Of a stretch of DNA of 64,000 nt, positions 2,591 to 37,878 are shown piece after piece. The stretch's first letter is position 1. Every line of letters begins with the position of its first letter. The notes below the pieces were generated by a model. It did no database searches. It saw only the letters and a program-made list of their open reading frames with translations, and was not told where the DNA came from. Origin of the DNA: Prorocentrum cordatum (Eukaryota); contig CAUYUJ010000267.1 in assembly GCA_963575745.1 (NCBI GenBank), forward strand, positions 1 to 64,000. Reading direction: 5' to 3'. The translations under genes and the position numbers were made by a program.

Positions 2591-4974
2591 CCCAACCCTC
2601 CTGTGTCGGGTTCTCGTTTGGGATAGAGCAGTGTGGTCTCCACCCTCCTTCTCCCGCCTCCTCGCTCCTGCCTTCTGTGCTCTCCTGCCGTCTGGTTCCT
2701 GATTCCTGCCTCGCCGTCTTGTCTGTTGGGTGGCCTTGCCTAGGGGTTGCGATCACTGGGGGGGGCTGCGATCTGCGCAACTGTCGCCACTTTCGTGGGC
2801 TCCTAGGAAGCCCAACGGGGGTACGTCATACGCGGATCACCACGGGACCTCGCCGCCCCCGCTTGCGATCTGCGCAACCGTCGCCACGTTCGTGGGCTCC
2901 TGAGAGGCCCAGCGGAGGTACGTCACACGCGGATCACCACGGGACCTCGCCGCCCCTGGGGGCTTGCGATCTGCGCAACTGTCGCCACTTTCGTGGGCTC
3001 CTGGGAGGCCCAGCGGCGGTTACGTCACACGCGGATCACCACGGGACCTCGCCGCCCCCTGGGGGGCTTGCGATCTGCGCAACTGTCGCCACATTCGTGG
3101 GCTCCTGGGAGGCCCAGCGGGGGTTACGTCACACGCGGACCACCACGGGACCTCGCCGCCCCTTGGGGGGGGCTTGCGAGCTGCGCAACTGTCGCCACTT
3201 TCGTGGGCTCCTGGGAGGCCCAGCGGCGGTACATCATAAGCGGATCACCACGGGACCTCGCCGCCCCCTGGGGGGGGCTTGCGATCTGCGCAACCGTCGC
3301 CACTTCCGTGGGCTCTTGAGGGGCCCAGCGGAGGAACGTCATACGCGGATCACCACGAGACCTCGCCGCCCCCTTGGGGGCTTGCGATCTGCGCAACCGT
3401 CGCCACGTTCGTGGGATCCTGGAAGCCCAACGGGGGTACGTCATACGCGGATCACCACGAGACCTCGCCGCCCCCTGGGGGGCTTGCGATCTGCGCAACT
3501 GTCGCCACTTTCGTGGGCTCCTGGGAGGCCCAGCGGAGGTACGTCATACGCAGATCACCACGGGACCTCGCCGCCCCCTGGGGGGCTTGCGATCTGCGCA
3601 AATGTCGCCACTTTCGTGGGCTCCTGGGAGGCCCAGCGGCGGTACGTCATACGCGGATCACCACGGGACCTCGCCGCCCCCTTGGGGGCCTGCGAGCTGC
3701 GCAACTGTCGCCACTTTCGTGGGCGCCTGGGAGGCCCAGCGGAGGTACGTCATACGCGGATCACCACGGGACCTCGCCGCCCCCTGGGGGGCTTGCAATT
3801 TGCGCAACTGTCGCACCTTTCGTGGGCTCTTGAGCGGCCCAGCGGAGGAACGTCATACGCGGATCACCACGAGACCTCGCCGCCCCCTTGGGGGCTTGCG
3901 ATCTGCGCAACCGTCGCCACGTTCGTGGGCTCCTGGGAGGCCCAGCGGAGGTACGTCATACGCAGATCACCACGGGACCTCGCCGCCCCTGGGGGGCTTG
4001 CGATCTGCGCAACTGTCGCCGCGTTCGTGGGCTCCTGGGAGGCCCAGCGGAGGTACGCCATACGCGGATCACCCCGGGACCTCGCCGCCCCCTGGGGGGC
4101 TTGCGATCTGCGCAACTGTCGCCACTTTCGTGGGCTCCTGGAAGGCCCAGCGGGGGTTACGTCACACGCGGATCACCACGGGACCTCGCCGCCCCCTGGG
4201 GGGCTTGCGAGCTGCGCAACTGTCGCCACTTTCGTGGGCTCCTGGGAGGCCCAGCGGAGGTACGTCACACGCGGATCACCACGGGACCTCGCCGCCCCCT
4301 GGGGGGCTTTGCGATCTGCGCAACCGTCGCCACGTTCGTGGGCTCCTGAGAGGCCCAGCGGCGGGACCTCGCCGCCCCCTGAGGGGCTTGCGATCTGCGC
4401 AACTGTCGCCACTTTCGTGGGCTCCTGGGAGGCCCAGCGGCGGTACGTCATACGCGGATCACCACGGGACCTCGCCGCCCCCTTGGGGGCCTGCGAGCTG
4501 CGCAACTGTCGCCACTTTCGTGGGCTCCTGAGAGGCCCAGCGGAGGTACGTCATACGTGGACCACCTCGGGACCTCGCCGCCCCCCAGGGGGCTTGCGAT
4601 CTGCCGCCCACTTTTGGTTCCACTTTTAGGTGCTTATCTTTGGGTTCGCTGCCGCGCCATTGTGTCTCCACTTCTGGATGAGTCTCCACCCCCGCTATGC
4701 ACCTCATGCATTTGCACCGCTCAGCGCAGCGCGTTGCTGAGTTAAACTGATGTTCTGTTGTAGCCCTCGCCGCCGCGCCCCTGTGTTCACTTTTTGGGCG
4801 CGTTTCTTTCAACGCCCCTGTTTCCATGTTGTATATTGCTGCGCTCTTCTGAAATCACTGCTGGGTGCTCTTCTTGCGTACTGCGGGTCCTTCAGAACGC
4901 CTGTCAGCATTAAGTGGTCCTGAGTATAGTCGCCACATGTGCAGAACGGGTTTGGTACGTCACAGAGTATTGTT
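2591..4974 (+). mobile_element. Helentron/DINE-1-like non-autonomous element, copy A, carrying the 103-bp satellite
   Basis: Begins TTT|CCCAACCCTCCTGTGTCGGGTTCTCGTTTG, homologous to the reverse complement of the termini at 21583, 26575, 35536 and 37878. Inserted in a T-run of a MITE with no TSD. The far end is degenerate. Confidence 0.6.
2755..4605 (+). repeat. ~103-bp tandem satellite, about 18 units
   Basis: Unit gcttgcgatctgcgcaactgtcgccactttcgtgggctcctgggaggcccagcggaggtacgtcatacgcggatcaccacgggacctcgccgcccc; measured period 103 (3541 to 3644). Confidence 0.95.
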
Positions 4975-5265
4975 TACAACTATTGTTGAAGAGTCCCTCC
5001 TGTAGAGGGACAGGCCCGACTTGAGCCTACCCCCTTCCCAGCGTTGCCCACGAGTGGGGTCGCGGCCCCAAGGCCTGGCCGGCGAGGCCGTGGATAGATG
5101 GATGCTGTGCCCACCCTCGCTCGGGCGTCCCGTGCCGTCCGTCTCTTCGAGGCCGTGCGCCCCCGGGGGGGCTGCGCGGGGGCCTCGGCCCCGAACGGAC
5201 CAGCAGGGGCGGTCGAAGGACCTGCGCCGCTCCCCACAAGATCCCTCGCAGAAGCGCCGAGCAGG

Positions 5266-12900: not shown

Positions 12901-14726
12901 CTCGAGTCCTCCTCCTCCTCCTCCTCCTCCACCCCCTGCCTGCTCAGTCCCCGCACTCTCACGCGCACCTCCTCCTCCTCCTCCTCCTCCTCCTCCTCGT
13001 CCTCCTCCTCCTCCTCCTCCTCCTCCCCTTCCCCCTCCTGTTCCTCCTCCTCCTCCTCCACCTCCTCCTCCTTTTCCTCCTCTTCCTCCTCCTCCTCCTC
13101 ATTCCTGCTCGGCCCCCACACTCTCACGCGCACCTCCTCCTCCTCCCCCTCCTCCTCCACCTCCTTCCTGCTGTCCCCGAACTCTCACGCGCACACTCTC
13201 CTCCTCCTCCTCCTCCTCCCTCCTCCTCTCCTCCCTCCTCCTCCTCCTCCTCCCCTTCCTCCCCTCCTCCTCCTCCTCCTCCTCCTCCTCCTCCTCCTCT
13301 CCTCCCCTTCCTCCTCCTCTCCTCCTCCTCCTCCTCCTCCTCGCTCCTCCTCCTCCTCCTCCTCCTCGTCCTCCTCCTCCTTCTCCCTCCTCCTCCTCCT
13401 CCTCCCCTCTCGCCTCTTCCTCCTTCCCCTCCCGTTCGTCCTCCTCCTCCTCATCCGTCCCCTCTCTTTCCTCCCGCCCTATCTTCCTCTCCTCTCTTCT
13501 CTCTCCTCCTCCTCTCCTCCTCCTCCCCCTTCCTGCTGTCGCCCGCACTCTCACGCGCGCTCCTCCTCCTCCTCCTCCTCCTCCTCCTCCTCCTCCTCGC
13601 TCCTCCTCCCGTCCTCATCCTCTCCTCTCCTCCTCCACTCCTCCTCCTGTTCCTCCGCATCCTCCTCCCTCATCCTCTTCCTCCTCCTCCTTCCTGCTCA
13701 GTCCCCGCACTCTCACGCGCACCTACCTCCTCCTCCTCTCCTCCTCCTCCTCCTCCTCCTCTCCTCCTCCTCCTCCCTCCTCCTCCCTCCTCCTCCTTCC
13801 TGCTCCAGCCCCCGCACTCTCACCGCACCTCCTCCCTCCTCCTCCTCCTCCTCCTCCTCCTCCTCCTCCTCCTCCTCCTCCCCTCCTCCTCCCCTTCCTC
13901 CTCCTCACCTCTCCTCTTCGCCTCATCCTCCTTCCCTCCCGTTCGTCCTCTCCTCCTCATCCTACCCCTCCTCTTCCTCCTCCCCCCCCCCGATCCTCCT
14001 CCTCCTCTTCCTCCTCCTCCTCCTCCTCCTCCAGGTCGTCCCCCTCCTCCTTCTCATCCTCCTCTTCCTCCTCGTAATCCCCTTCCTCCTCCTCCTCGTT
14101 GCTTCCTCCTCCTCCTCATCCTCCACCTCCTCCTCCTTCTCCTCATCCTCCTCTTCTCCCCTTCATTCGCAGTAGCGTTCGCAGTGTTACTGGTAGTCTT
14201 ATTATTGTTATTATGATTATTAGTAGTATTATTAGTAGTAGTATCATCGTCAGCATTATTATTATTAATACTATTATTAATAGTAGCATTCGTATTGCTA
14301 GTATTAGCATTCGTATTATTATTATTATTAGTATTGTTATTAGTATTGTTATTATTAGTATTATAAGTATTATTATTATTATTACTATTATTATTATTAT
14401 TTGTAGTAGTCGTAGTAGTATCATGGTTATTACTATTAACATTAATAATAGTAGCAGTCGTATCATTGTGATTAGTCTTGTTCGTGTTACTAGTAGGATT
14501 AAGGTTTATTATGCGTATCATTAATAGTAGTGTTAGGATGATTCTTCGTATTAACAGGAGTACTGATAGTATTATGAGTGTTATGAAAGTTCGTGATGTT
14601 CGTATTCGTAATGGAATTATTCTTAGCCGTGTTAGTACATGGGTATGCTTCAGTGTCTGCTCCTGAGTATGCATGGTTGTCTTATTGTTGTTAGTAGTAG
14701 TCGTATTAGTCCTATTATCCTATGAT

Positions 14727-14767
<41 letters not shown>

Positions 14768-16008: not shown

Positions 16009-16040
<32 letters not shown>
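12900..16040. repeat. Compound microsatellite block: (CCT)n, then AT-rich (TAT/TAG)n at ~14190-14945, then (CCT)n/(CAT)n
   Basis: Direct reading; the motif CCTGCTCAGTCCCCGCACTCTCACGCGCA recurs inside the CCT tracts. Confidence 0.9.
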
Positions 16041-16041
<1 letters not shown>

Positions 16042-17327: not shown

Positions 17328-18134
17328 TAACAGAAGCGTCGGACCGCCCTCTGAAGGCCTGCCCCTCGGTGATCTGCTGACCCGGGTCAATCCAGACCCG
17401 GGTCAGCAGGGCCCTGCAAGATGCTGCAGGATCCTGCAAGATCCTGCACCCAAACCCGGGTCAATGCGAAGGATCCTGCAGGATCCTGCAGGATCCTGCA
17501 CCCAAACCTAGGTCAGTGCGCCCCTGGCCCTGCGGGAACCTGCAAGATCGGGCGCTCTGGCTGACCCCCGTCTGCATTGACCCCCGTCTCAAGGCTCCCG
17601 ATGCCCTCCTCTCACCTTCCCCTCCGGGCGGCGCGCCGCCAAGGTGCGGTCCACGGCGCGAAGGGCTCTGCACCTGTCGAGTCCAAACCTTGCCATCGCT
17701 CGGGCGTCCATTGCCGGTGCATGTTTCGATCTCTCGTGTGCTGATGTAGAATGGTGGACGATATGGAGACTCTACGCGCTCCCAAAACACGATAGATTCG
17801 GGCAATGAAAATTGGGGATACATGTACCCAACATTCGAACCGATGTTCCCAAAGCGTATCCAGGACCATGACGAATGACGTGGAATCCATATGTGTTAGA
17901 GGCTTTTTTGGGGTGGAAGGTCTCCTGGGAGCATCTGAAAAATATGTTTGGGGCCTCTGAGGCCTCGAAGACTCCTTTTCAACATTGTTTGGGCGTTTTC
18001 TTACGATCAACCGCAGAGCGGCTGCTACTGGACAGTCAGCGGCGAAAGGGTATACCAAGCGAATTCTGTCAATCGCAAGTCCAACGACTGCAATGACAAA
18101 CAAAAAGGCCTTGTAGCTTGCACGACCACATTTC

Positions 18135-20092: not shown

Positions 20093-21312
20093 CATTATCC
20101 TGGCGAAGGACCCAACCATATATTCACTTGTGAGTAACGCATTGACGGTGCCGTTATCGGTGGGACACAACACGCGCAAGGGGCGCGCCGTAATGGGTGT
20201 GGCGGACGCGTGCGGGCACCCCCACTGGGGCCTTCGGAGGAGCCCCGATGGGGCCACGAAGCGCTGTGCTGGGTGTGGCGGACGCATGCGGGCGATGGAG
20301 CTCCCTATGGGGCCACGAAACGCTCTGCTGGGTGTGGCGGACGCATGCGGGCACCCCCACATGCGCGCGTCGGTGGAAGCCTCCCCATGGGGCCCACGAA
20401 ACGCTGTTGCTGGTGTGGGCTGACGCCAATGCTGGCACCCGCCCTGGGCCTTCCGGTGGAGCTCCCTCTGGACCACGAAACGCTTGTGCGGGGTGTGGCG
20501 GACGCCAATGCGGAACCCCCACTGGGGCTTTCGGTGGAGCTCCCTATGGGGACAACGAAGCGCCGTCGAAACGCTGTGCTGGGTGTGGCGGACGCATGCG
20601 GGCACCCCCACTGGGGCCTTCGGTGGAGCTCCCTGTGGGGCCACGAAACGCTGTGCTGGGTGTGGCGGACGCATGCGGGCACCCCCACTGGGGCCTTCGG
20701 TGGAACCCCCTATGGGGCTGCGAAGCGCTGTAGTGGATGTGGCGGACGCATGCGGGCACCCCCACTGGGGCCTTCGGTGGAGCTCCCTGTGGGGCCACGA
20801 AACGCTGTGCTGGGTGTGGCGGACGCATGCGGGCACCCCCGCTGAGGCCTTCGGTGGAGCTCCCTATGGGACCACGAAGCGCTGTGCTGAGTGTGGCGGA
20901 CGCATGCGGGCACCCCCACTGGGGCCCTCGGTGGGGCTCCCTATGGGGTCCCGAAACGCTGTGCTGGGTGTGTCGGACGCATGCGGGCACCCCCACTGGG
21001 GCTTTCGGTGGAGCTCCCCATGGGGCCACGAAACGCTGTGCTGGGTGTGGCAGACGCATGCGGGCACCCCCACTGGGGCCTCCGGTGGAGCTCCCCATGG
21101 GGCCACGAAGCGCTGTGCTGGGTGTGGCGGACGCATGCGGGCACCCCTACTGGGGCCTTCGGTGGAGCTCCCCATGGGTCCACGAAACGCTGTGCTGAGT
21201 GTGGCGGACGCATGCGGGCACCCCCACTGGGGCCTGATGGCGATGATGGCGATGATGATGATGAAGACGGTGATGATGACGTCGATGGTGATGATGATGG
21301 TGACAATGATGG

Positions 21313-21382
<70 letters not shown>

Positions 21383-21438
21383 ATTGATGATGGTATTGAA
21401 GATGCTGATGCTGATGCTGATGCTGATGATGATGATGG

Positions 21439-21506
<68 letters not shown>

Positions 21507-21583
21507 GGGAGGAGGGGCGAGGAGGAGTGCACGCGGGGCGCTGTCTCTTCAAAACGAGGACCCAACACCACAAGATGGCTGGG
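20093..21583 (-). mobile_element. Helentron/DINE-1-like element, copy B, with 77-bp satellite and (GAT)n
   Basis: Ends ATCCTGGCGAAGGACCCAACCAT and CTCTTCAAAACGAGGACCCAACACCACAAGATGGCTGGG. The empty site catctgaaaaatatg is present at ~17932 and ~28715. Period 77 (20581 to 20658). Confidence 0.75.
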
Positions 21584-22903: not shown

Positions 22904-22924
22904 CTCTGAAGGTACTGAATACAA

Positions 22925-24865: not shown

Positions 24866-26346
24866 AATTATCCTGGCGAAGGACCCAACCATATTCAGTT
24901 GCGAGTAACGCATTGACGGTGCCGTTATCGGTGGGACACGACACGCGTAAGGGGCGCGCCGTAATGGGTGTGGCGGACGCGTGCGGGCACCCCCACTGGG
25001 GCCTTCGGTGGAGCCCCGATGGGGCCACGAAACGCTGTGCTGGGTGTGGCGGACGCATGCGGGCGGTGGAGCTCCCTATGGGGCCACGAAACGCTATGCT
25101 GGGTGTGGCGGACGCATGCGGGCACCCCCACTGGGGCCTTCGGTGGAGCTCCTCATGGGGCCACGAAGCGCCGTGCTCGGTGTGGCGGACGCATGCGGGC
25201 ACCCCCACTGGGCCTTCGGTGGAGCTCCCTCTGGGACCACCAAGCGCTGTGCTGGGTGTGGCGGACGCATGCGGGCACCCCCACTGGGGCCTTCGATGGA
25301 GCTCCCTATGGGGCCACGAAACGCTGTGCTGGGTGTGGCGGACGCATGCGGGCACCCCTACTGGCGCCTTCGGTGGAGCTCCCAATGGGGCCACGAAGAG
25401 CTTGTACTGGGATTGTGGCATGTGGCGGAGCATGCGGGCCACCCCCACGAGCTTCGGGTGAGCTACCTAGGGGGCCACGGAACGCTGGCGAAAGACATCG
25501 GGACGAATGTCGGGGCAACCCCAGCAAGAGCTCGGTGGAGCCTCCCTATGGGGCCACGCAAACGCTGCGCTAAGATCCTGGCGGCAGGTAAAAGGCGCGT
25601 ACCAACACCCAGTGTGGCGGACGTGGCCATTGGACGCTTCCCTGGGGCCCTCGGTGGGGCTTCCCTATGGGGTTTTTGTGGGCCCCCGAAACGCTGTGCT
25701 GGTGTGGGCGGACGCATGCGGGCACACAAACTGAGACCTTCGGTGGAGCTCCCCAGGGCAACCGAAACGCTGGTGCTGGGGTGTGGCAACGCATGCGGGC
25801 ACCCCCACTGGGGCTCCGGTGTGGAGCTCCCCAGGGGCCACGAAACTGCGGGTCGGGTTGGGCGGACGCATGCGGGCACCCCCACTGGGGCCTTCGGTGG
25901 AGCTCCCTATGGGGCCACGAAAAGCCGTGCTCGGTGTGGCGGGCGCATGCGGGCACCCCCACTGGGGCCTTCGGTGGAGCTCCCTCTGGGACCACGGAAC
26001 GCTGTGCTGGGTGTGTCGGGCGCATGCGGGCACCCCCACTGGGGCCTTCGGTGGATCTCCGTATGGGGCCACGAAACGCTGTGCTGGGTGTGGCGGACGC
26101 ATGCGGGCACCCCCACTGGAGCCGTCGGTTGAGCTCCCTATGGGGCCACAAAACGTGTGAGGGGTGTACCGAAAGGGGCCATGATGACGATCATGACGGT
26201 GATGGCGATGATGATGATGAAGACGGTGATGATGACGTCGATGGTGGTGATGATGGTGACAATGATGGTGATGATGGTGATGGTGATGGTGATGGTGATG
26301 GTGATGATGATGATGATGATGATGCTGATGATGATGATGATGATGC

Positions 26347-26384
<38 letters not shown>

Positions 26385-26575
26385 CTGATGCTGCTGATGA
26401 TGATGATGATGATGATGCTGATATTGATGATGATATTGATGATGATGATGCTGCTGCTGATGATGATGGTGATGATGATGATGATGATGATGATGATGGG
26501 GAGGAGGGGCGAGGAGGAGTGAACGCGGGGCGCTGTCTCTTCAAAACGAGGACCCAACACCACAAGATGGCTGGG
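24866..26575 (-). mobile_element. Helentron/DINE-1-like element, copy C, with 77-bp satellite and (GAT)n
   Basis: Same termini and same spacer insertion site as copy B, with different array lengths. Confidence 0.75.
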
Positions 26576-26770
26576 AAATATGTTTGGGGCCTCTAAGGCC
26601 TCGAAGACTCCTTTTCAACATTGTTTGGGCGTTTTCTTACGATCAACCGCAGAGCGGCTGCTACTGGACAGTCAGCGGCGAAAGGGTATACCAAGCGAAT
26701 TCTGTCAATCGCAAGTCCAACGACTGCAATGACAAACAAAAAGGGCTTGCAGCTTGAACGACCGCATTAC

Positions 26771-27885
26771 TCAAAAATATGCCACTGCGGTTGAGGCGTT
26801 CTTGGGACTGGCACCGAGACCAAGCCCGTCAAGCGAGAGCAAACTGATTCTGTTCTGGCAGTTCAGACTGGGCTCAGCTGCGGCCGTGTGGTCGTCCAAT
26901 CCCAGAATCCCGCCCACAGGATACCCTGCAAACTACAGGTTGCGGACGAAAATGTTCAGGTAGACGATGCCACTCCTTAGTGTGCCATGCACACCGTCAG
27001 ATCAACCTGGCCTGAAGCGCAGCCAACGCACCGGACTCCCTTCTCAGCGACAGGCCGGCCGCTGAAGGGCGGGCCCTTTGAGCCGACCCATCTCCCCGTC
27101 AGGTTCACCGACTGGAAGTACATGTCAGCGCACGCCACGCCCATCTGACGCGCCTCCGCATCGACGCTCAACAAGGCGGCCCCGCGTTTGGCACCCCGGG
27201 GAACCCGCACCAGCGTGTGCCATCCCTCCTTGCGGAGGTCGAACCGCTGCCCGAACACGTTGGCGAGGTGAGGGTCCCCTTTCGCCTGCGCCTGTCCACC
27301 CGCCGCACCAGCCGGCGGCGAGGACGACGTGGGGCTGGGAGTCGGGCTGGGCGTCGGGTTGGGAGTCGGGCTGTTCGTCGTCGGGCACGCTACGCTTCCC
27401 GACACCGTCGCTGGGTACAGATTGGAGCAGCCCTCCATCAAGACCATGGTGTGGCCTATCAGGAGAGTGAAGCTTGACGACGTGCTGCAGGCCCCCAGGG
27501 TGAATTCGAAGACCGCCCAGTCGTCGTAACCGTCGTAGCCAGGGCAAGTGGAAATCACGCTTGTCGAGAAGCCGTTCGCGCACAGCGAATCCAGATAGGA
27601 GACGGATGTGTCTGGTAGCATAAAATCTGCTTGCCGCGTGATCTGGTTGCCCGAACTGTCCGACAAGGTCATGGTGCCTGCATGGCTGGGCTCGCTCAGT
27701 GAAGAGTGCCAGTGCTGCACGAACGCGAGCAGCTTGCCTGCGGGCGAGATGCAAGCGCGCACTTGTGTCCCATGCCGCCGCGAAACGTTCGCCCCTCCAA
27801 TTGCAGGCGCACCCGCCAGCAGACCGGTTGCGGTGCGAATGCCCCCCATGAACACGAGCGTGATGAGCAACCCCTTGAGGGTCAT
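26771..27885 (-). CDS. GDPH protein copy 4 (indel patch at ~26930-27080)
   Basis: Near-identical to copy 2, with a 12-nt in-frame deletion in the Pro-rich linker. The frameshifts cluster in one noisy patch. Confidence 0.65.
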
Positions 27886-28925
27886 CTCTGAAGGTACTGA
27901 ATACAAGTGAGGATCCGGATCTCTGCTTAATGCATAAGCGCTCTGGCAGCGACGCGCTGAGCCAAACATGCTTCGCGGTCAGCCCCGAGGTTTCTCATTG
28001 TTTCTCCATCCGTCACCACCTCTCATTCTCTCGCTCCCTCTCTCTCTCTGTCTGTCTCTGTCTCCGTCTCTCTCCCTCTCTCTCTATCCCCCTCTCCCTG
28101 CAACCCGCCCTCGCCCTCTCCTTACGCATGTCGATGCCTCAAACACTGCTTGCTTAGGGTTCTTGCACTTCGATGTGTGAAGTCATTGGATGGGCTTGCC
28201 CGGCTTTGGCCATGCTGCTGCCTGCGCCGCCGCTTGGGCGCCTCGTGGGCGCCCCGTGCGCTGGGTGGGCTTCCCGAGGTTGCGCCGCGCTGCCGTCCGT
28301 GCCGCCTCCTGGGCACTCCGTGCGCTGAGTGGGATGTCCGAAGTTGTGCCACGTTTGCGCCAGTGGCGCCCTACGAGCGCCCCGTAATCTGACCTAACAT
28401 GACACAGTTGTCGCCACATGTTTTACCCCACATCGCCTGCACCGCACAGATTGCACAGCATAGCTTGAATCTCATAGCTGGCATTCAATAGCGCGCACCT
28501 CCAAGTCACACCGCCTAGCTTGGCACCACATAGCTGCACCACAATAGTTGTTTTTACCTACACAGCTCACACTCACAAGCAAAAGTTTACTCGACGCAGC
28601 GTTCGCGCAATAACTTCCACACCGCATGGCTTTCACCTCCCTTTAAAACGCCGTTGGAATCCCCTATTGCTTTAAGAGGCTTTTTTTGGTGCACGAACAG
28701 GCCTCCGGGTAAGTCCTCTGAAAAATAGTTTGGGGCCTCTGAGGCCTCGAGACTCCTTTTTCACATTGTTTTGGGCGTTTTTCCTTTAAGATCAAGCCGC
28801 AGAGCGTCTGTTACGGTACAGTCAGCGGGCGAAAGGGTAATACAAGCGAATCTTGTTCAATATCGAATCCCCCAACGACTGCAATGACAAACAAAAAGGG
28901 CTTGCAGCTTGAACGACCGCATTAC

Positions 28926-29734
28926 TCAAAAATATGCCACTGCGGTTGAGGCGTTCTTGGGACTGGCACCGAGACCAAGCCCGTCAAGCGAGAGCAAACT
29001 GATTCTGTTCTGGCAGTTCAGACTGGGCTCAGCTGCGGCCGTGTGGTCGTCCAATCCCAGAATCCCGCCCACAGGATACCCTGCAAACTTCAGGTTGCGG
29101 ACGAAAAGGTTCAGGTAGACGATGCCACTCTTAGTGTGGCCCTGCACCACCTTCAGCTCCACCTGGCCGAATCGCAGCCAACGCCCGGACTCCTTCTCAG
29201 CGACATGGCCGGCGCTGAAGGCGCGGCCCTTTGAGCCGACCCATCTCCCCGTCAGGTTCACCGACTGGAAGTACATGTCAGCGCACGCCACGCCCATCTG
29301 ACGCGCCTCCGCATCGACGCTCAACAAGGCGGCCCCGCGTTTGGCACCCCGGGGAACCCGCACCAGCGTGTGCCATCCCTCCTTGCGGAGGTCGAACCGC
29401 TGCCCGAACACGTTGGCGAGGTGAGGGTCCCCTTTCGCCTGCGCCTGTCCACCTGCCGCACCGGCCGGCGGCGGGGGCGGCCTCGAGGACGACGTGGGGC
29501 TGGGAGTTGGGCTGGGCGTCGGGTTGGGAGTCGGGCTGTTCGTCGTCGGGCACGCTACGCTTCCCGACACCGTCGCTGGGTACAGATTGGAGCAGCCCTC
29601 CATCAAGACCATGGTGTGGCCTATCAGGAGAGTGAAGCTTGACGACGTGCTGCAGGCCCCCAGCGTGAATTCGAAGACTGCCCAGTCGTGGTAACCGTCG
29701 TAGCCAGGGCAAGTGGAAATCACGCTTGTCGAAA
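28926..29734 (-). pseudogene. GDPH protein copy 5, 5'-truncated
   Basis: Identity with the other copies stops abruptly at gtcgaaa|ctcctttt (29734); the signal peptide is missing. Confidence 0.8.
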
Positions 29735-29984: not shown

Positions 29985-30080
29985 TACTCGTCCTACTACT
30001 ACTACTACTACTACTACTACTGCTACTACTACTACTACTACTACTGCTACTACTACTACTACTACTACTACTAATCCCAG

Positions 30081-30120
<40 letters not shown>

Positions 30121-30133
30121 GCCTACTACTACT

Positions 30134-30189
<56 letters not shown>

Positions 30190-30309
30190 GGCCAATACTA
30201 CTACTACTACTACTACTACTACTGCTGCTACTGCTGCTACGACTACTACTTCTACTACTACAACTACTACTTCTACTACCACCACTACTGCTATTACTAC
30301 TACTACTCA

Positions 30310-30353
<44 letters not shown>

Positions 30354-30410
30354 CATCTTTTACTTCTACTAGTACACCTACTACTATTACTACTATTACT
30401 ACCTCACTAA

Positions 30411-30442
<32 letters not shown>

Positions 30443-30809
30443 CTACTGACTACCCTACTAGTACTAACCCCCAAACTACTACGACTACGACTACGACTAC
30501 TAACTAACTACTAAACTACTACCACTAACTAACTAACTTACACTTTACTACTAACTACTATCTACACCTGTTCTAACCTATTGAATTACTTTACTATTAC
30601 TACTTTACCTGCGACTGTTCCTCGCACTATTACTATTACTACTAACTCTACTACTCCTACTACTAACACTACTAACTACTAATACTACGAACTACTAACT
30701 ACTTACTACTAACTACTAACTACTAACTACTAACTACCAACTACTAACTACTTACTACTAACTACTACTAACTACTACTAACTACTACTAACTACTACTA
30801 ACTACTACT

Positions 30810-30872
<63 letters not shown>

Positions 30873-30967
30873 CACTACGACTACTTCTACACTTACTACT
30901 ACTGCTACTACTACTACTACGACTGCTACTACTATTATTACTACTAATACTATTTCATCTGCTACTC

Positions 30968-31043
<76 letters not shown>

Positions 31044-31057
31044 GACTACTCCTACTA
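29985..31057. repeat. (ACT)n microsatellite with (ACTA) variants
   Basis: Direct reading of the sequence. Confidence 0.95.
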
Positions 31058-31660
31058 CGAGGGGACCGAACGACTCGCACCAGGACGAGGTGCCCGAACG
31101 CCTCACACCACGAGGAGCCCGAACGACTCACACCAGGACGAGGGGCCCGAACGACTCACACCACGAAGAGCCCGAACGACTCACACCAGGAGGAGGGGCC
31201 GAACGACTCACAACAGGACGAGGCGCCCGGGCGACTCACACCACGAGGAGCCCGAACGGCTCGCACCAGGACCAGGGGCCCGAACGACTCACACCAACCA
31301 GGAGCCCGAACGACTCACACCAGGAGGGGCCCGAACGACTCACACCAGGACGAGGGGCTCGAACAACTCACACCACGAGAAGCCCGAACGACTCACACCA
31401 GGACGAAGAGCCCGAACGACTCAAACCACGAAGAGCCCGACCGACTCACACCAGGAAGAAGGGCCCGAACGACTCACACCAGGACGAGAGGCCCGAACGA
31501 CTCAAACCACGAGGAGCCCGAACGGCTCGCACCAGGACCAGGGGCCCGAACGACTCACATCACGAGGAGCCCGAACGACTCACACCAGGAAGAGGGGCCC
31601 GAAGGACTCACACGGACGATGGGGCCGAACGACTCACCCCACGAGGGGCCCCAACGACTC
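31058..31660 (+). repeat. Minisatellite of alternating ~25/28-bp units (core GCCCGAACGACTCACACCA)
   Basis: The cccgaacg core occurs at 31093, 31118, 31146, 31171 and onward; followed by (GTC)n to ~31840. Confidence 0.9.
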
Positions 31661-31743
31661 CCACCAGTCGTCGTCGTCGTCGTCGTCGTCGTCGTAGTCG
31701 TCGTCGTCGTCGCCGCCGCCTTCGTCGTCGTCGTCGTCGTCGA

Positions 31744-31784
<41 letters not shown>

Positions 31785-32091
31785 TGGTCGTCGTCGTCGT
31801 CGCGGTCGATGTCGTCGTCGTCGTCGGGTGTGTCGTCGTTGTTAGGATCATCGCTGTGGTCGTCTCCGCTAAATCCCTCTTGCCTCCCACCGCTTTCTCT
31901 CCCTCCTCCTCCGCCTCGTCCTTCTCCCGCTCCCACCACAAGAGGATGTACAAGGAGGCGGGAGGAAGGAGGAACAGGGGAGATATGCGGGGGCAGGCGG
32001 AAACACGCCTGAAAAACACGACTGTCGGCATGCTTCGCAAGACTTGCTGTTTTGAGATGGGCTGGTGGGGATACGCGAAGCGTGAAGAATT

Positions 32092-32883
32092 AATCGATCC
32101 AGTGGCAATGCTGCAACCATAAAATGCATCCATTGATGCTGGTATATAAAATGCGCAGGAGCCGAAAGACAACTCCCAAAACCTTGATGGCAACGTATAG
32201 AAAGCCACTTGAGTGTTAACGTTGGAAATTATGCAAGAAACCGTTGCAGAAATTACCGAAAAAACTATAAGCACGATCAGTGGCGACCGGTTTGCGCTCA
32301 ACTTCTGTGCGTAGCCAAGCACGAAGGGAAAGAGTATATAGAATTGCTCCTCCACGCCCAGGGACCACAAGTGAGTGAAGGGATTTAGGGCCAAATTCTT
32401 ATGTCCCCGCTCGAAATAATCGAGCTGAAGGCTCGCAAAATAATTGTTGGCCAAACCGAAAAGCCCGAGCACGCCTGCCGTATAGTAGCCGGTCAAGTCT
32501 GAAACATACGTTGGCGTGAAGATGTTGGTGAAGACCGCGGTTGTGAGCACAGTCGCCATAAGAGCAGGAACCAAGCGCCACATTCGCCTGCCAAAAAACG
32601 CAAACGTTTTATCGCACAACGGCAGGTCGCCATGAATAAGCGAAGCTGTGTTGACATAGCCCGAGATGGTGAAGAATATATCGACCCCGGTGAATCCACC
32701 TGGAAGCCACGTCGGATTGAAATGGAAAGCGATGACAGAAAGCACCGCCACAGCACGCAGCCCATCGATGTCGGCCCGCCTCTGCGAGCTGGCACTACTA
32801 TGCTCCTCCAACGCATGGGGGGCATCTTTGAAAAAAGGCTTTTCTGGGTCATCTGATTCATTACTTGCCATTGGCTCGATCAT
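32092..32883 (-). pseudogene. 3'-truncated retrocopy of an OafA/YrhL-type membrane O-acyltransferase (Acyl_transf_3)
   Basis: Motifs RADIDGLRAVAVLSVIAFH, GGFTGVDIFFTISGY, RRMWRLVPAL, HLWSLGVEEQFY, SRFWEL. Intronless, with SL upstream. The frame runs into repeats below 32092. Confidence 0.85.
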
Positions 32884-32921
32884 TGGCAACAATGACGGGA
32901 ATTACGCTTGTGCTGTCACGG

Positions 32922-32958
32922 CTTGAGCCAATATGGCTTGAGCCAAAATGGCTACGGA
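32922..32958 (-). other. Full dinoflagellate spliced leader plus tandem SL relic
   Basis: Minus strand reads TCCGTAGCCATTTTGGCTCAAG (32958-32937) then CCATATTGGCTCAAG (32936-32922), 38 nt before the ATG. Confidence 0.95.
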
Positions 32959-33293: not shown

Positions 33294-35536
33294 TAGCCAG
33301 ACGAAGGACCCAACAATGTGCAGGTGTGAATACCGCAGTTGACACTACCAATTTCGGTGGGGCTCCCTATAGGGCCACGGAACGTGTGAAAGGGATGGGT
33401 GTGCGGGACGCATGCGGGCGGCAGCACTGGGGCCTTCGGTGGAGCTCCCTATGGGGCCACGAAACGTGTGAGGGAGTTGACGAAATGGGTGTGGCTGACG
33501 CATGCGGGCGCGGGCACTGGGGCCTTCGGTGGAGCTCCCTATGGGGCCACGAAACGTTGAGGGGTGTGCCGAAATGGGTGTGGCTGACGCATGCGGGCGC
33601 AGCACTGGGGCCTTCGGTGGAGCTCCCTATGGGGCCACGAAACGTGTGAGGGGTGTGCCGAAATGGTTGTGGGTGACGCATGCGGGCGGCAGCACTGGGG
33701 CCTTCGGTGGAGTTCCCTATGGAGCCACGAAACGTGTGAGGGGTGTGCCGAAATGGGTGTGGGTGACGCATGCGGGCGCGGGCACTGGGGCCTTCGGTGG
33801 AGCTCCCTATGGAGCCACGAAACGTGTGAGGGGTGTACCGAAATGGGTGTGGGTGACGCATGCGGGCGCGGGCACTGGGGCCTTCGGTGGAGCCCCCGAT
33901 GGGGCCACGAAACGTGCTATATATGTGTGTGCCGAAAACATGTGTCGGATGACGCAGCGGCACCGCGCGGGCACTTGGGGCCCTTCGGTGGAGCTCCCTA
34001 TGAGAAAACACGAAGCGTGTGAGGGGGGTCGTGCGTCCGGAATCGGGTGTGGCGAACGCACCATGCGGGCGCGGCACGGGGGCCTTCGGTGGAGATCCCC
34101 ATGGGACCCACGGATCCTCGTGAGGTTGTGTGCCGAAATGCCTGTGTGGCTGTACGCATGCGGTTGCGGGCACTGGGGCACTTCTTCGGTTGGAGCTCCC
34201 AATGGAGCACGAAGCGTGTGAGGGGCGTGTGCCGAAAATGGGTGCCCCCTCTTCTCATGCGGGCGCGGGCATTGGGGCCTTCGGTGGAGCTCCCTATGGA
34301 ACCACGAAACGTGTGAGGGGTGTGCCGAAATGGGTGTTGGTGGCGCATGCGGGCGCGGGCACTGAGGCCTTCGGTGGAGCTCCATATGGAGCCACGAAAC
34401 GTGTGAGGGGTGTGCCGAAATGGGTGTGGGTGACGCATGCGGGCGCGGGCACTGGGGCCTTCGGTGGAGCTCCCTATGGAGCCACGAAACGTGTGAGGGG
34501 TGTGCCGAAATAGGTGTGGCTGACGCATGCGGGCGCGGGCACTGGGGCCTTCGGTGGAGCTCCCTATGGAGCCACGAAACGTGTGAGGGGTGTGCCGAAA
34601 TGGGTGTGGGTGACGCATGCGGGCGCGAGCACTGGGGCCTTCGGTGGAGCTCCCTATGGAGCCACGAAACGTGTGAGGGGTGTGCCGAAATGGGTGTGGG
34701 TGACGCATGCGGGCGCGGGCACTGGGGCCTTCGGTGGAGCTCCCTATGGAGCCACGAAGCGTGTGAGGGGTGTGCCGAAATGGGCGTGGCTGGCGCATGC
34801 GGGCGCGGGCACTGAGGCCTTCGGTGGAGCTCCCTATGGAGCCACGGAACGCGTGAGGGGTGTGCCGAAATGGGTGTGGGTGACGCATGCGGGCGCGGGC
34901 ACTGGGGCCTTCGGTGGAGCTCCCTATGGAGCCACGAAACGTGTGAGGGGTGTGCCGAATTGGGTGTGGGTGACGCATGCGGGCGCGGGAACTGGGGCCT
35001 TCGGTGGAGCTCCCTATGGAGCCACGAAACGTGTGAGGGGTGTGCCGAAATGGGTGTGGCTTGACGCAATGCGGTGCGCGGGGCACTGGGGCCTCAGTGG
35101 AGTTCCTAGGGAGCCACGAACGTGTGAGGGGTTTTTTGTGCCGCCATTGGTGTGGCTCTGACGCATGCGGGCGCGGGCCACTGGGGCCTTCGGTGGAGCT
35201 CCCTATGGAGCCACGAAAAACGTGTGAGGGGTGTGCCAGAAATGGGTGGGTGGACGCATGCGGGCGCGGGCACTGGGGCCTTCGGTTGAGCTCCCTATGG
35301 AGCCACGAAGCGTGTGAGGGGTGTGCCGAAATGGGTGTGGCTGACGCATGCGAGCGCGGGCACTGGGGCCTTCGGTGGAGCTCCCTATGGAGCCACGAAG
35401 CGTGTGAGGGGTGTGCCGAAATGGGCGTGGCTGACGCATGCGGGCGCGGGCACGAGGGAGGAGGGGGCAGCGGGAGGAAGGAGACGCGGGGCACCGTCTC
35501 TTCAAAACGAGGACCCAACACCACAGGATGGTTGGG
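33294..35536 (-). mobile_element. Helentron/DINE-1-like element, copy D, with 90-bp satellite
   Basis: Ends CGAAGGACCCAACAAT and CTCTTCAAAACGAGGACCCAACACCACAGGATGGTTGGG. Period 90 (34321, 34411, 34501). Confidence 0.75.
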
Positions 35537-35540
35537 ACAA

Positions 35541-37878
35541 ATTCGCCTGACGAAAGGACCCAACCATGTGCAGGTGTGAATACCGCAGTTGACGCTACCA
35601 ATTTCGGTGGGGCTCCCTATAGGGCCACGAAACGTGTGAAGGGGATGGGTGTGCGGGACGCATGCGGGCGGCAGCACTGGGGCCTTCGGTGGAGCTCCCT
35701 ATGGAGCCACGAAACGTGTGAGGGGCACTGTGACGAAATGGGTGTGGCTGACGCAGGCGGGGCAGACGGGCCACTTGGTGCCTTCGTGGAGTTCCCTTCA
35801 ATGGGACCACGAACGTTTGGAGGGGTGTGCCGAAATTGGGTGTGGCTGACGCATGCTGGGCGCGGGCCACTGGGGCCTTCGGTGGAGCTCCCTATGGGGC
35901 CACGAAACGTGTGAGGGAGTTGACGAAATGGGTGTGGCTGACGCATGCGGGCGCGGGCACTGGGGCCTTCGGTGGAGCTCCCTATGGGACCACGAAACGT
36001 TTGAGGGGTGTGCCGAAACGGGTGTGGCTGACGCATGCGGGCGCGGGCACTGGGGCCTTCGGTGGAGCTCCCTATGGGGCCACGAAACGTGTGAGGGGTG
36101 TGACGAAATGGGTGTGGCTGACGCATGCGGGCGCGGGCACTGGGGCCTTCGGTGGAGCTCCCTATGGGACCACGAAACGTTTGAGGGGTGTGCCGAAATG
36201 GGTGTGGCTGACGCATGCGGGCGCGGGCACTGGGGCCTTCGGTGGAGCTCCCTATGGTGCCACGAAACGTGTGAGGGGTGTGCCGAAAAGGGTGTGGCTG
36301 ACGCATGCGGGCGCGGGCACTGGGGCCTTCGGTGGAGCTCCCCATGGGACCACGAAACGTGTGAGGGGTGTGCCGAAATGGGTGTGGGTGACGCATGCGT
36401 GCGCGGGCACTGGGGCCTTCGGTGAAGCTCCCTATGGAGCCACGAAACGTCTGCGGGGGGCTCTGTGCCGAATTGGGTGTGGCTGCCGCATGCGGGCGGC
36501 AGCACTGGGGCCTTCGGTGGAGCTCCCTATGGGGCCACGAAACGTGTGAGGGGTGTGCCGAATTGGGTGTGGCTGACGCATGCGGGCGGCGGCACTGGGG
36601 CCTTCGGTGGAGCTCCCTATGGGGCCACGAAACGTGTGAGGGGTGTGCCGAAATGGGTGTGGGTGACGCATGCGGGCTCGGGCACTGGGGCCTTCGGCGG
36701 AGCTCCCTATGGAGCCACGAAACGTGTGACGGGTGTGCCGAAATGGGTGTGGGTGACGCATGTGGGCGCGGGCACTGGGGCCTTCGGTGGAGCTCCCTAT
36801 GGAGCCACGAAGCGTGTGAGGGGTGTGCCGAAATGGGTGTGGGTGACGCATGCGGGCGCGGGCACTGGGGCCTTCGGTGGAGCTTCCTATGGAGCCACGA
36901 AGCGTGTGAGGGGTGTGCCGAAATGGGTGTGGGTGACGCATGCGGGCGCGGGCACTGGGGCCTTCGGTGGAGCTCCCTATGGAGCCACGAAACGTGTGAG
37001 GGGTGTGCCGAAATGGGTGTGGCTGACGCATGAGGGCGCGGGCACTGGGGCCTTCGGTGGAGCTCCCTATGGAGCCACGAAACGTGTGAGGGGTGTGCCG
37101 ATATGGGTGTGGGTGACGCTTGCGGGCGCGGGCACTGGGGCCTTCGGTGGAGCTCCCTATGGAGCCACGAAACGTGTGAGGGGTGTGCCGAAATGGGTGT
37201 GGGTGACGCATGCGGGCGCGGGCACTGGGGCCTTCGGTGGAGCTCCTCGGTGGAGCTCCCTATGGAGCCACGAAACGAAATGGGTGTGGTGACGCATGAG
37301 GGGTGTGCCGAAATGGGTGTGGGTGACGCATGCGGGCGCGGGCACTGGGGCCTTCGGTGGAGCTCCCTATGGAGCCACGAAACGTGTGAGGGGTGTGCCG
37401 AAATGGGTGTGGGTGACGCATGCGGGCGCGGGCACTGGGGCCTTCGGTGGAGCTCCCTATGGAGCCACGAAACGTGTGAGGGGTGTGCCGAAATGGGTGT
37501 GGCTGACGCATGCGGGCGCGGGCACTGGGGCCTTCGGTGGAGCTCCCTATGGAGCCACGAAACGTGTGAGGGGTGTGCCGAAATGGGTGTGGCTGACGCA
37601 TGCGGGCGCGGGCACTGGGGCCTTCGGTGGAGCTCCCTATGGAGCCACGAAGCGTGTGAGGAGTGTGCCGAAATGGGTGTGGCTGACGCATGCGGGCGCG
37701 GGCACTGGGGCCTTCGGTGGAGCTCCCTATGGAACCACGAAGCGTGTGAGAGTTGTGCCGAAATGGGCGTGGCTGACGCATGCGGGCGCGGGCACGAGGG
37801 AGGAGGGGGCAGCGGGAGGAAGGAGACGCGGGGCACCGTCTCTTCAAAACGAGGACCCAACACCACAGGATGGTTGGG
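35541..37878 (-). mobile_element. Helentron/DINE-1-like element, copy E, head-to-tail with copy D
   Basis: Junction GGATGGTTGGG-acaaattcg-CCTGACGAAAGGACCCAACCAT; same termini and same 90-bp array. Confidence 0.75.

What the first reader, a model, noticed from the sequence alone, without database searches (positions are those of the whole stretch)
2591..37878. Family of Helentron/DINE-1-like elements that carry and spread related satellite arrays
Seen: five satellite arrays (2591-4974, 20093-21583, 24866-26575, 33294-35536, 35541-37878) are bracketed by related short ends. One end is CTCTTCAAAACGAGGACCCAACACCACAGGATGGTTGGG, which can fold into a CCCAA/TTGGG hairpin. The other carries AGGACCCAACCAT, whose CCCAACCAT is the inverted copy of the far terminus; this end is degenerate in copy A. 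Insertions fall in A/T runs without a TSD. Known: subterminal IRs, an extra partial IR, a microsatellite, central tandem repeats and T|T insertion define Helentron-derived HINE/DINE-1 elements. Inference: these 'satellites' are cargo of a rolling-circle element; I know of no description of this in dinoflagellates.
Basis: partly seen in the sequence, partly recalled or inferred. Interest (0 to 1): 0.78.

Follow-up and report, generated by a model that had tools for sequence, protein, structure and literature searches.

The report
Satellite-carrying mobile elements in a dinoflagellate
Five satellite-DNA arrays in this dinoflagellate window are each boxed in by the same two short end sequences and sit as clean insertions in A/T runs, an anatomy that closely matches the protein-less rolling-circle (Helentron/Helitron2-type) elements known to spread satellites in flies and oysters, although the enzyme-coding parent element could not be looked for.

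Summary
One 39-nt end occurs 4 times against 0 expected, and the other end 4 times. A fifth, degenerate copy (A) lies in reverse orientation. These are fewer independent events than five. B and C are one insertion copied with a 2.1-kb tandem gene unit, and D and E are a head-to-tail dimer. Two paralogous units without the element show a clean insertion into GAAAAAT. A target duplication of 0 to about 5 nt cannot be resolved.

Read on the opposite strand, each element has this order:
- T-run, then a 9-bp terminal inverted repeat with a nested hairpin and a conserved core;
- a microsatellite, then a 77/90/103-bp array;
- the matching inverted repeat, a small palindrome, and a T-run.

This is the HINE/DINE-1 plan (PMC4067079, PMC7492417). 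The host is a dinoflagellate, since exact spliced-leader relics are present. A Helitron2-like Rep-helicase is published for Symbiodinium (PMC8788227).

No genome was held, so a Rep-Hel partner and genome-wide pairing of the ends are untested. In four contig sets the conserved end has 30-90 times the summed depth of its mate. Two metagenome loci carry it without the mate.

Verdict: probably a HINE-like element (about 0.55), a new member of a known kind.

The parts
2591..4974 (+). Copy A, whole element; its sense orientation (5' subTIR first) is the + strand. Degenerate ends.
   Evidence: An RE profile hits 2627-2591(-) with E = 4e-4. Alignment of both ends is, and the sequence.
2760..4604 (+). 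Copy A central array, 103-bp unit (about 18 copies; 309-bp higher-order period).
   Evidence: TRF rows. The unit shares the GGAGCC(C)ACGAAA core with the 77/90-bp units when reverse-complemented (read).
20093..21583 (-). Copy B, whole element. Order on the + strand: LE, unique block, 77-bp array 20194-21235, (GAT)n 21242-21506, G-rich block, RE 21524-21583.
24866..26575 (-). Copy C, whole element. It is the same insertion as B, copied with the 2.1-kb tandem unit. Arrays 24965-26178, (GAT)n 26181-26498, RE 26516-26575.
   Evidence: Outside flanks of B and C are 60/60 and 57/60 identical.
33294..35536 (-). Copy D, whole element. 90-bp array 33395-35453 (22 copies), RE 35478-35536.
35537..35540 (.). 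ACAA spacer at the head-to-tail junction of D and E.
   Evidence: One contig of run X3 (record 24) bridges 35484-35573 with 9 other letters and 4 gaps.
35541..37878 (-). Copy E, whole element. 90-bp array 35645-37795, RE 37820-37878.
17925..17950 (.). Paralogous empty site 1 (…GCATCTGAAAAATATGTTTGGGG…).
28710..28735 (.). Paralogous empty site 2 (…CCTCTGAAAAATAGTTTGGGG…), more diverged.
2..1021 (-). Related 90-bp satellite array in reverse orientation (72-76% identical to the D/E arrays). It runs off the window start, and no recognisable end lies inside the window.

Best explanation
These are non-autonomous DNA elements of the Helentron/Helitron2 type (HINE- or DINE-1-like) living in a dinoflagellate genome.

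- The element begins, after a run of T, with the 9-bp subTIR CCCAACCAT.
- Its first 6 bases pair with GTTGGG 8 nt downstream (the nested IR).
- A conserved core of about 35 nt follows, then CCT-rich simple sequence, plus (ATC)n in B/C.
- Next comes a central array of related 77-, 90- or 103-bp units.
- A short unique block leads to the 3' subTIR ATGGTTGGG and a 4-bp-stem palindrome.
- The element ends 17-19 nt later, before another run of T.

Inferred mechanism (not shown here): a Rep-helicase (HUH) transposase supplied in trans nicks at the T-run next to the 5' subTIR. It peels off one strand up to the 3' signal and reinserts it at a T-run without duplicating the target. Missing the 3' signal would give head-to-tail dimers such as D-E, and copies that keep only the 5' end.

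The internal array is cargo. It grows, shrinks and diverges by slippage or unequal exchange, so transposition seeds related satellite arrays at new loci.

What is shown: the ends, their inverted and direct repeat relations, the order of parts, insertion relative to two empty sites, T/A-rich targets, and different flanks.
What is inferred: everything enzymatic.
For: 1. Shared ends far above chance. RE-type and LE-type ends are paired 5 of 5 in the window's complete arrays, counting degenerate A.
2. Conservation peaks at the ends. Between B/C and D/E the last 60 nt of RE are 87-89% identical, the adjoining 40 nt 57%, LE 1-30 64-77%, LE 31-100 55-63%, and outside flanks 37-47%.
3. Homology stops at the same base in six different flank contexts of RE: A, B/C, D, E, L003 and L001/L002.
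4. Within a 2.1-kb tandem unit, two units carry the element and two do not. The empty sites read GAAAAAT(A).
5. All RE flanks start with A, and all LE flanks end in A-rich sequence. On the sense strand these are T-runs on both sides. HINEs are described as flanked by Ts of variable number, without target modification (PMC4067079, passages).
6. The order of substructures equals that given for HINEs. The left flank holds subTIR, complementary IR 1-12 bp away, and microsatellite. Then come the tandem repeats. The right flank holds subTIR plus palindrome (PMC7492417, passages).
7. One element (L003) carries two consecutive related array types, 89 bp x 9.5 and 77 bp x 5.5. This is also described for an oyster HINE (PMC7492417, passages).
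8. The D-E head-to-tail dimer. Tandem Helitrons are attributed to bypass of the termination signal (PMC4067079, passage in section 15).
9. The host is a dinoflagellate. The exact 21-nt spliced-leader relic lies at 32937-32957(-), and relics also occur in L002 and L004. A Helitron2-like Rep-Hel without endonuclease is reported from Symbiodinium microadriaticum (PMC8788227, passages).
10. One possible compensating change. In copy A the subTIR pair reads CCCAACCCT / CCAAACCCG where the others have A:T at the eighth position. This is a single event in a degenerate copy, so it is weak.
Against: - No Rep, helicase or endonuclease domain was found in 65 of the 131 window ORFs of at least 180 aa that I sent to Pfam. 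No genome was available in which to look for a coding copy with these ends.
- The subTIR is 9 bp, against 11-15 bp in the described families. The 3' subTIR lies 17-19 nt from the end, against 38-60 in mite HINEs (PMC4067079, section 5).
- The 5' hairpin is not better than shuffles in B (z +0.95), and B/C carry an uncompensated T>C in it.
- The 3' palindrome has only a 4-bp stem in B/C and E, and I saw none in D or A.
- AAAT stands on both sides of the B/C copy, so a TSD or crossover core of up to 4-5 nt fits as well as none.
- Only three or four independent full-length insertions were seen: A, B/C, D-E, and L003 cut by the contig end.
- In Logan contigs of 4 runs, the summed word depth of RE is 30-91 times that of the D/E-type LE. 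None of the 4 metagenome loci holds AGGACCCAAC a second time. Pairing of the ends is therefore not the rule, or LE is much more diverse than RE.
Confidence: 0.55

Rival explanations
1. A non-autonomous DNA element of another class that integrates through a short common core. An example would be a tyrosine-recombinase (Crypton-like) element, or an undescribed class. A circular form carrying the RE-LE junction would recombine with AAAT in the target.
For: AAAT (or AAT) lies outside both ends in B/C, A and D, and after RE in L003. The empty site holds one AAAAAT, and the left and right homologies overlap by 6 nt. A head-to-tail junction exists. The asymmetric ends lack true terminal TIRs.
Against: Nothing in this model predicts the subTIR, nested IR, microsatellite, array, subTIR, palindrome layout that matches HINEs part for part. 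E is followed by AACT and L001/L002 by AAAAAG, so the core is not constant. RE-only copies (L001/L004, L002) are not expected from conservative site-specific recombination.
Confidence: 0.15
2. A composite retroposon (SINE- or SVA-like, with an internal VNTR) whose 3' end is RE. Copies would be made by target-primed reverse transcription at A/T-rich sites and often truncated at the 5' side.
For: RE is followed by A-rich sequence in all copies. RE has 30-91 times the summed depth of the D/E-type LE in 4 contig sets. L002 has only 4.5 monomers and L001/L004 none upstream of RE, with no LE.
Against: The As after RE in B/C are already present in the empty sites, so there is no added poly(A) tail and no TSD longer than about 5 nt. 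No duplication of the RE-side flank is seen at the truncated side of L001 or L002 (read). An inverted-repeat relation between the two ends is not a retroposon feature. No tRNA or other RNA family was matched in the window.
Confidence: 0.1
3. Not mobile. The arrays and their junction sequences would be pieces of one satellite landscape, copied by segmental duplication and unequal exchange.
For: B and C are demonstrably copies made by duplication of a 2.1-kb unit. D and E are tandem. L001/L004 and L002 share about 45 nt of flank beyond RE, so they descend from one site.
Against: Homology ends at the same base in six unrelated flank contexts. Outside flanks are at random level, 37-47%. Two paralogous units lack the element exactly between the ends. 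Copy A is inverted relative to the others.
Confidence: 0.05

Closest known systems
HINEs / DINE-1 (non-autonomous Helentrons of Drosophila, mites, mosquitoes; PMC4067079)
   Same: Asymmetric subterminal inverted repeats, an IR whose 5' half is nested in the 5' subTIR, a microsatellite, central tandem repeats and a small palindrome near the 3' end. Insertion is into T-runs, with Ts on both borders and no evident target modification.
   Different: The subTIR is 9 bp (13 in DINE-1, 12-15 in mites). The 3' subTIR is 17-19 nt from the end (38-60 in mites). The arrays are much longer (up to 22-26 units, 2.2 kb). The host is an alveolate protist. No autonomous partner has been identified.
Cg_HINE elements carrying Cg170-type satellite arrays in the Pacific oyster (PMC7492417)
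   Same: Dispersed short satellite-like arrays, each boxed by a conserved left flank (subTIR, IR, microsatellite) and right flank (subTIR, palindrome). Subfamilies have related or unrelated monomers, and some elements carry two consecutive array types (as in L003).
   Different: Oyster arrays average up to about 5 monomers of 140-180 bp. Here the units are 77-103 bp, with 5-26 copies per array.
Helitron2 (Chlamydomonas) and the Helitron2-like Rep-Hel element of Symbiodinium microadriaticum (PMC4067079 background passage; PMC8788227 passages)
   Same: Asymmetric terminal inverted repeats with palindromes at both ends. It is a dinoflagellate lineage member without AP endonuclease, which makes a plausible kind of autonomous partner.
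   Different: I could not see the termini of the Symbiodinium element, so no sequence or structural comparison was made. The window's host has about 60% G+C and is not shown to be Symbiodinium.
Canonical Helitrons (5'-TC … CTRR-3', hairpin before the 3' end, insertion between A and T; features recalled, and partly stated in PMC4067079 section 11)
   Same: No long TSD, a hairpin near one end, tandem copies, and one end more conserved than the other.
   Different: The termini are neither TC nor CTRR in either orientation. The insertion lies between A and A (T and T), not between A and T.
SVA-type composite retroposons (recalled, not read here)
   Same: A central VNTR between conserved ends, simple-sequence blocks, and one end far more abundant than the other.
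   Different: No poly(A) tail or TSD at the site with empty alleles. The two ends are related as inverted repeats.

Membership tests
HINE / DINE-1-like (non-autonomous Helentron/Helitron2) | Pair of asymmetric subterminal inverted repeats, 11-15 bp in described families | tested here: inconclusive
   The pair is present but only 9 bp long (CCCAACCAT / ATGGTTGGG). It is perfect in E and 8/9 in B, C and D, and about 7/9 in A with one possibly compensating change. The length is below the published range (PMC4067079 section 5; PMC7492417 passages).
HINE / DINE-1-like | IR complementary to the 5' subTIR, 1-22 bp away from it | tested here: met
   GTTGGG lies 8 nt after CCCAACCAT in D, E, L001, L002 and L003. 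B/C have GCTGGG (one mismatch). A has a shifted AACCC/GGGTT pair. The fold z-score is only -2.1/-2.3 in E and +0.95 in B.
HINE / DINE-1-like | Microsatellite between the 5' flank and the central repeats | tested here: met
   (GAT)n, 265 and 318 bp long, lies next to the G-rich block in B and C. The other copies have GGA/GGGA-rich simple sequence at the same place.
HINE / DINE-1-like | Central tandem repeats | tested here: met
   77-, 90- and 103-bp arrays in A-E. L003 has 89 + 77 bp arrays, and L002 has 90 bp x 4.5.
HINE / DINE-1-like | Palindrome (5-10 bp) between the 3' subTIR and the 3' end | tested here: inconclusive
   There is a 4-bp stem with a 5-nt loop in C (TCCT/AGGA) and in E (TTCG/CGAA), built from different bases. 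None was seen in D or A.
HINE / DINE-1-like | Insertion into T-rich sequence (TT), Ts on both borders, no target-site modification | tested here: inconclusive
   T/A runs lie on both borders in all copies. The one site with empty alleles fits no TSD (with one substitution) or a 4-bp AAAT TSD (with one indel).
HINE / DINE-1-like | Autonomous partner with the same termini encoding Rep-helicase (with or without endonuclease) | not testable with these tools
   No genome is held. None of the 65 window ORFs sent to Pfam has such a domain.
Canonical Helitron | 5'-TC and 3'-CTRR termini, insertion between A and T | tested here: not met
   The termini are ATT…/…TTGGG, or CCCAAC…/…ATAAT on the other strand. 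The flanks are A|A (T|T).
SINE/SVA-like retroposon | Poly(A) or simple-repeat tail added at insertion, plus a TSD of variable length | tested here: not met
   The As next to RE of B/C are present in both empty sites. No duplication longer than about 5 nt is seen.
TIR (cut-and-paste) transposon / MITE | Inverted repeats at both extreme termini and a TSD of fixed length | tested here: not met
   The LE-side inverted repeat starts 17-19 nt inside the element. The outer 17 nt of LE have no counterpart at RE.

The most novel reading that the evidence does not exclude
A Helitron2-like rolling-circle family may be the main vehicle of the most abundant satellite family of a free-living dinoflagellate. 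Its initiation end has one fifth to one tenth of the summed contig depth of the satellite core in four contig sets.

One-ended transposition (bypass of the 3' signal) would place this end directly upstream of spliced-leader retrogenes and inside tandem gene arrays, always in the genes' orientation. Rolling-circle transduction would then contribute to the gene duplication and tandem gene arrays that are typical of dinoflagellates.
Probability: 0.12. Interest if true: 0.8.

Novelty: new member of a known kind. Interest (0 to 1): 0.5.

Why it matters
Dinoflagellate genomes are huge and repeat-rich, and their repeats are mostly unclassified. A 2024 review of dinoflagellate genomics contains neither the word Helitron nor the word satellite.

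If this family is what it appears to be, it would give three things:
- a named mechanism for the dispersal of a very abundant satellite family;
- an extension of the link between HINEs and satellite DNA from animals to alveolates;
- non-autonomous partners for the Helitron2-like Rep-Hel lineage, which one study places at the base of Helentrons and Helitron2.

The 60-nt conserved end is also a practical probe for finding all copies, and any coding parent element, in a full assembly.

Tried and rejected
Searches that gave nothing:
- The window's own genome is not held, so genome-wide pairing could not be done.
- Earlier notes of this scan gave nothing by place, by sequence or by words.
- Scans of genome contigs and viral contigs with the 22-nt RE core gave 0 hits each.
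- Rfam on the whole window gave 0 families at gathering score.

Pfam results:
- I sent 65 of the 131 ORFs of at least 180 aa. The ORFs lying in the arrays and some overlapping frames were left out.
- The only hits were Acyl_transf_3, a weak RVT_2 and a weak decapeptide repeat, with no Rep or helicase.
- The three ORFs next to the metagenome copies matched 0 families.
- For the six long ORFs running through the arrays, nothing scored above the curated cut-off and no stretch passed on its own. I therefore reject a coding repeat.

Read laying:
- I hoped for loose ends exactly at the termini. Only satellite-internal loose ends were listed (969 more were not shown), so the termini could not be refined.
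- The depth figures are sums over contigs and are not copy numbers.
- The small word shares of the metagenome runs say nothing about habitat.

Readings rejected:
- Canonical Helitron, because the termini and target do not fit.
- Cut-and-paste MITE, because the ends are asymmetric.
- Retroposon, because there is no tail or TSD at the site with empty alleles.

Array at 2-1021: I looked for an LE-like end to its right (1021-1100). Neither the profile search nor my reading found one.


Full report
**What is there**

Tandem Repeats Finder shows arrays at these places:
- 2760-4604, 103-bp unit;
- 20194-21235 and 24965-26178, 77-bp unit with 59-bp variants, each followed by a (GAT)n tract of 265 or 318 bp;
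- 33395-35453 and 35645-37795, 90-bp unit.

None was found in 100 shuffles. The core of the other end (LE) occurs four times, at 20104, 24877, 33302 and 35552.

Reading the borders gives, for each of B, C, D and E, the same order: LE, a 40-70-nt unique block, the array, simple sequence, a G-rich block, then RE.

Copy A is the same thing turned round. An RE profile built from seven copies finds it at 2627-2591 on the minus strand (E = 4e-4). In the alignment its other end is a degenerate LE at about 4935-4974. The LE profile does not reach it.

**How many events**

A self-comparison shows that B and C are not independent. A 2.1-kb unit is repeated four times: 17940-20059, 21584-24832, 26576-28682 and 28723-29734. 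B and C sit between units, and their outside flanks are 60/60 and 57/60 identical.

The second unit contains a 100-N gap (22925-23024) flanked by 1051 identical bases. This looks like a scaffolding artefact.

D and E are head to tail with ACAA between them and are 89% identical along their length. The window therefore holds three independent contexts: A, B/C and D-E.

**Insertion**

Two junctions between units lack the element:
- 17925-17950 reads GCATCTGAAAAATATGTTTGGGG;
- 28710-28735 reads CCTCTGAAAAATAGTTTGGGG.

The filled sites read CATCTAAA(A/C)A-TTATCC…GGCTGGG-AAATATGTTTGGGG. Local alignments place the end of left homology at 17945 and the start of right homology at 17940, an overlap of 6 nt. 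The element is therefore an insertion into an A-run.

Two readings fit equally well:
- no duplication, with one G>A substitution;
- a 4-bp AAAT duplication, with loss of the G.

No longer duplication and no added tail is present.

**Other copies**

No genome is held for this window. One scan of metagenome contigs with a 22-nt RE core gave four contigs.

- L003 has 5.5 units of 77 bp, 9.5 units of 89 bp, the G-rich block and RE, followed by a new flank (AAATAAAACATCG). The contig starts just inside the LE unique block, a weak profile hit with E = 0.42.
- L002 has only 4.5 units of 90 bp before RE.
- L001 and L004 are the same locus from two samples and have only the G-rich block and RE.
- None of the four loci holds a second AGGACCCAAC.
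- L001/L004 and L002 share about 45 nt beyond RE, so they descend from one site.

Altogether RE ends at the same base in six flank contexts.

**Conservation**

Identity between B/C and D/E, by segment:

| Segment | Identity |
|---|---|
| Last 60 nt of RE | 87-89% |
| Next 40 nt inward | 57% |
| LE 1-30 | 64-77% |
| LE 31-100 | 55-63% |
| Outside flanks | 37-47% |

Inside LE, the best-kept stretch is GGACCCAAC. The ends, and RE above all, are under constraint or are young relative to the arrays.

**Abundance**

Logan contigs of four runs were laid on 35300-35750. Two runs are labelled as organisms and two are metagenomes. Peak summed word depths per bin were:

| Run | RE | D/E-type LE | Satellite core |
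|---|---|---|---|
| X1 | 289,193 | 9,806 | 2,305,566 |
| X20 | 412,772 | 4,541 | 2,163,788 |
| X8 | 6,358 | 176 | 62,909 |
| X3 | 43,822 | 1,127 | 234,218 |

The tool warns that these sums are not copy numbers. Taken roughly:
- RE has one fifth to one tenth of the depth of the monomer core. That fits many short arrays, each with an RE.
- RE has 30-91 times the depth of this LE.

Part of the second gap must be LE diversity. The B/C-type LE is too different to be laid at 85% likeness. Part may be real, as in L001 and L002.

One X3 contig bridges the RE-spacer-LE junction with 9 differences and 4 gaps. Head-to-tail junctions therefore exist beyond this exact locus.

**Host**

The 21-nt dinoflagellate spliced leader (motif recalled) is found in three places:
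- exactly at 32937-32957(-), followed by a second partial relic, just upstream of an Acyl_transf_3 ORF at 31555-32901(-);
- in L002, with 1 mismatch;
- in L004, with 3 mismatches.

The window and the metagenome loci are dinoflagellate DNA of about 60% G+C.

**Best reading**

- a T-run;
- CCCAACCAT;
- 8 nt, then GTTGGG, which pairs with the first six bases;
- a conserved core;
- CCT-rich simple sequence, plus (ATC)n in B/C;
- the tandem repeats;
- a unique block;
- ATGGTTGGG;
- a 4-bp-stem palindrome (C and E);
- the end 17-19 nt later, then a T-run.

Thomas et al. (PMC4067079; I read section 5 and the passages returned by two term searches) describe HINEs and DINE-1 as follows:
- subTIRs of 12-15 or 13 bp;
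- an IR whose 5' side is nested in the 5' subTIR;
- a microsatellite and central repeats;
- a 3' palindrome;
- insertion into T-rich sequence, with a variable number of Ts on both borders and no target modification.

The oyster study (PMC7492417, passages) lists the same substructures around satellite-like arrays. These are subTIR, an IR 1-12 bp away and a microsatellite on the left, and subTIR plus palindrome on the right. It also reports elements with two consecutive array types.

Every part therefore has a counterpart here, in the same order. The departures are quantitative:
- a 9-bp subTIR;
- a 3' subTIR closer to the end;
- weak palindromes (RE fold z -2.1/-2.3 in E, +0.95 in B);
- much longer arrays.

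Thomas et al. also note that tandem Helitrons are thought to arise when the termination signal is bypassed (passage in section 15). This would account for the D-E dimer and, by extension, for copies with RE only.

Heringer and Kuhn (PMC8788227, passages) report a Rep-Hel from Symbiodinium microadriaticum. It branches outside Helentron plus Helitron2, lacks the AP endonuclease, and lies in an element of Helitron2-like structure. A suitable kind of enzyme is therefore known in the phylum.

**What is not shown**

- No Rep or helicase domain is in the window. This rests on 65 of the 131 ORFs of at least 180 aa.
- The mechanism is inferred from anatomy alone.

I put the HINE-like reading at about 0.55. 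The rivals are:

| Rival | Probability | Main point |
|---|---|---|
| Element integrating through an AAAT core (tyrosine-recombinase-like or unknown class) | 0.15 | AAAT lies on both sides of several copies |
| VNTR-bearing retroposon with 5' truncation | 0.10 | Disfavoured by the empty sites and by the lack of TSDs at the truncated copies |
| Non-mobile satellite junctions | 0.05 | Disfavoured by six unrelated flanks and two empty sites |

The remaining 0.15 is left open.

**Novelty**

Three library searches found no description of HINE-like or satellite-carrying rolling-circle elements in dinoflagellates:
- 'dinoflagellate' with 'Helitron': 34 papers, of which I saw the listing of 20;
- 'dinoflagellate' with 'tandem repeats', 'non-autonomous' and 'satellite': 6 papers, listing only;
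- 'Helentron' with 'dinoflagellate': 1 paper, PMC8788227.

A 2024 review of dinoflagellate genomics has no occurrence of 'Helitron' or 'satellite' (term search only). The library lacks most subscription journals, and I did not open any paper's supplementary files. Repeat tables in genome papers may list such elements.

I therefore rate this a new member of a known kind, in a new host lineage.

**A lead worth following**

Wherever a neighbour can be read, the element has the same orientation as the adjacent genes:
- the Acyl_transf_3 retrogene lies 340 nt downstream of D;
- ORFs with spliced-leader relics lie directly downstream of the RE-only copies in L002 and L004;
- the minus-strand ORFs of the 2.1-kb unit lie around B and C, with third-position G+C of 0.69-0.75 against 0.50-0.58 at positions 1 and 2.

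This is three or four independent cases. It is too few to exclude chance, or a general strand bias of insertions in unidirectional gene blocks.

Noticed in passing
window 355-526: A 172-bp foldback or MITE-like insert with 45-nt arms (82% complementary) interrupts the reverse-oriented 90-bp satellite array at 2-1021.
   Followed up: partly
window 2479-2504 and 5000-5025: Copy A lies between 26-nt inverted repeats (88% complementary). They sit 86 nt and 26 nt outside its ends, and their sequence (…GGGACAGGCCC…) resembles the arms of the foldback at 355-526. A may have inserted into or between such elements.
   Followed up: partly
window 31555-32957 (-): An Acyl_transf_3 ORF (Pfam E = 1.3e-17) is preceded by an exact 21-nt dinoflagellate spliced-leader sequence and a second partial relic. 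This is the signature of a retroposed gene. It lies 340 nt from the LE side of copy D, in the element's sense orientation.
   Followed up: partly
window 17940-29734: A tandem array of a 2.1-kb unit carries a minus-strand ORF of about 330 aa (contains GDPHL; GC3 0.69-0.75; no Pfam family). Two of the four junctions between units hold the element, and two are empty.
   Followed up: partly
window 22925-23024: A 100-N gap is flanked by 1051 identical bases on each side (21874-22924 = 23025-24075). This is probably an unmerged overlap from scaffolding, so this unit is artificially long.
   Followed up: yes
window 46131-52227 and 52531-58615: A tandem duplication of about 6.1 kb (94-96% identical) contains a 641-aa ORF with a weak RVT_2 (Copia-type reverse transcriptase) match, below the cut-off.
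   Followed up: no
window 12907-16033, 29993-31826: Very long simple repeats are present: (TCC)n of 1.2 and 1.1 kb separated by (TTA)n/(TAG)n, (CTA)n of 1.1 kb, a 28/53-bp minisatellite of 0.6 kb, and (GTC)n.
   Followed up: no
L001 1688-2063; L002 340-700 (minus strand reading): Another dispersed or tandem repeat family lies next to RE in L001/L004 and L002. TRF gives a period of 162 bp in L002, and the unit contains GGACATAAAGGGGGGACCCTACCGG and GGAAATATGTGAAGAAATTGCC.
   Followed up: no
window 1606-1706, 40686-40957, 61165-61413; L001 60-300: Degenerate 11-nt or 21-nt repeats of the type GGCCCCAAGAG recur at several places. They also occur in what appears to be the 3' untranslated region of the L001 retrogene.
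   Followed up: no
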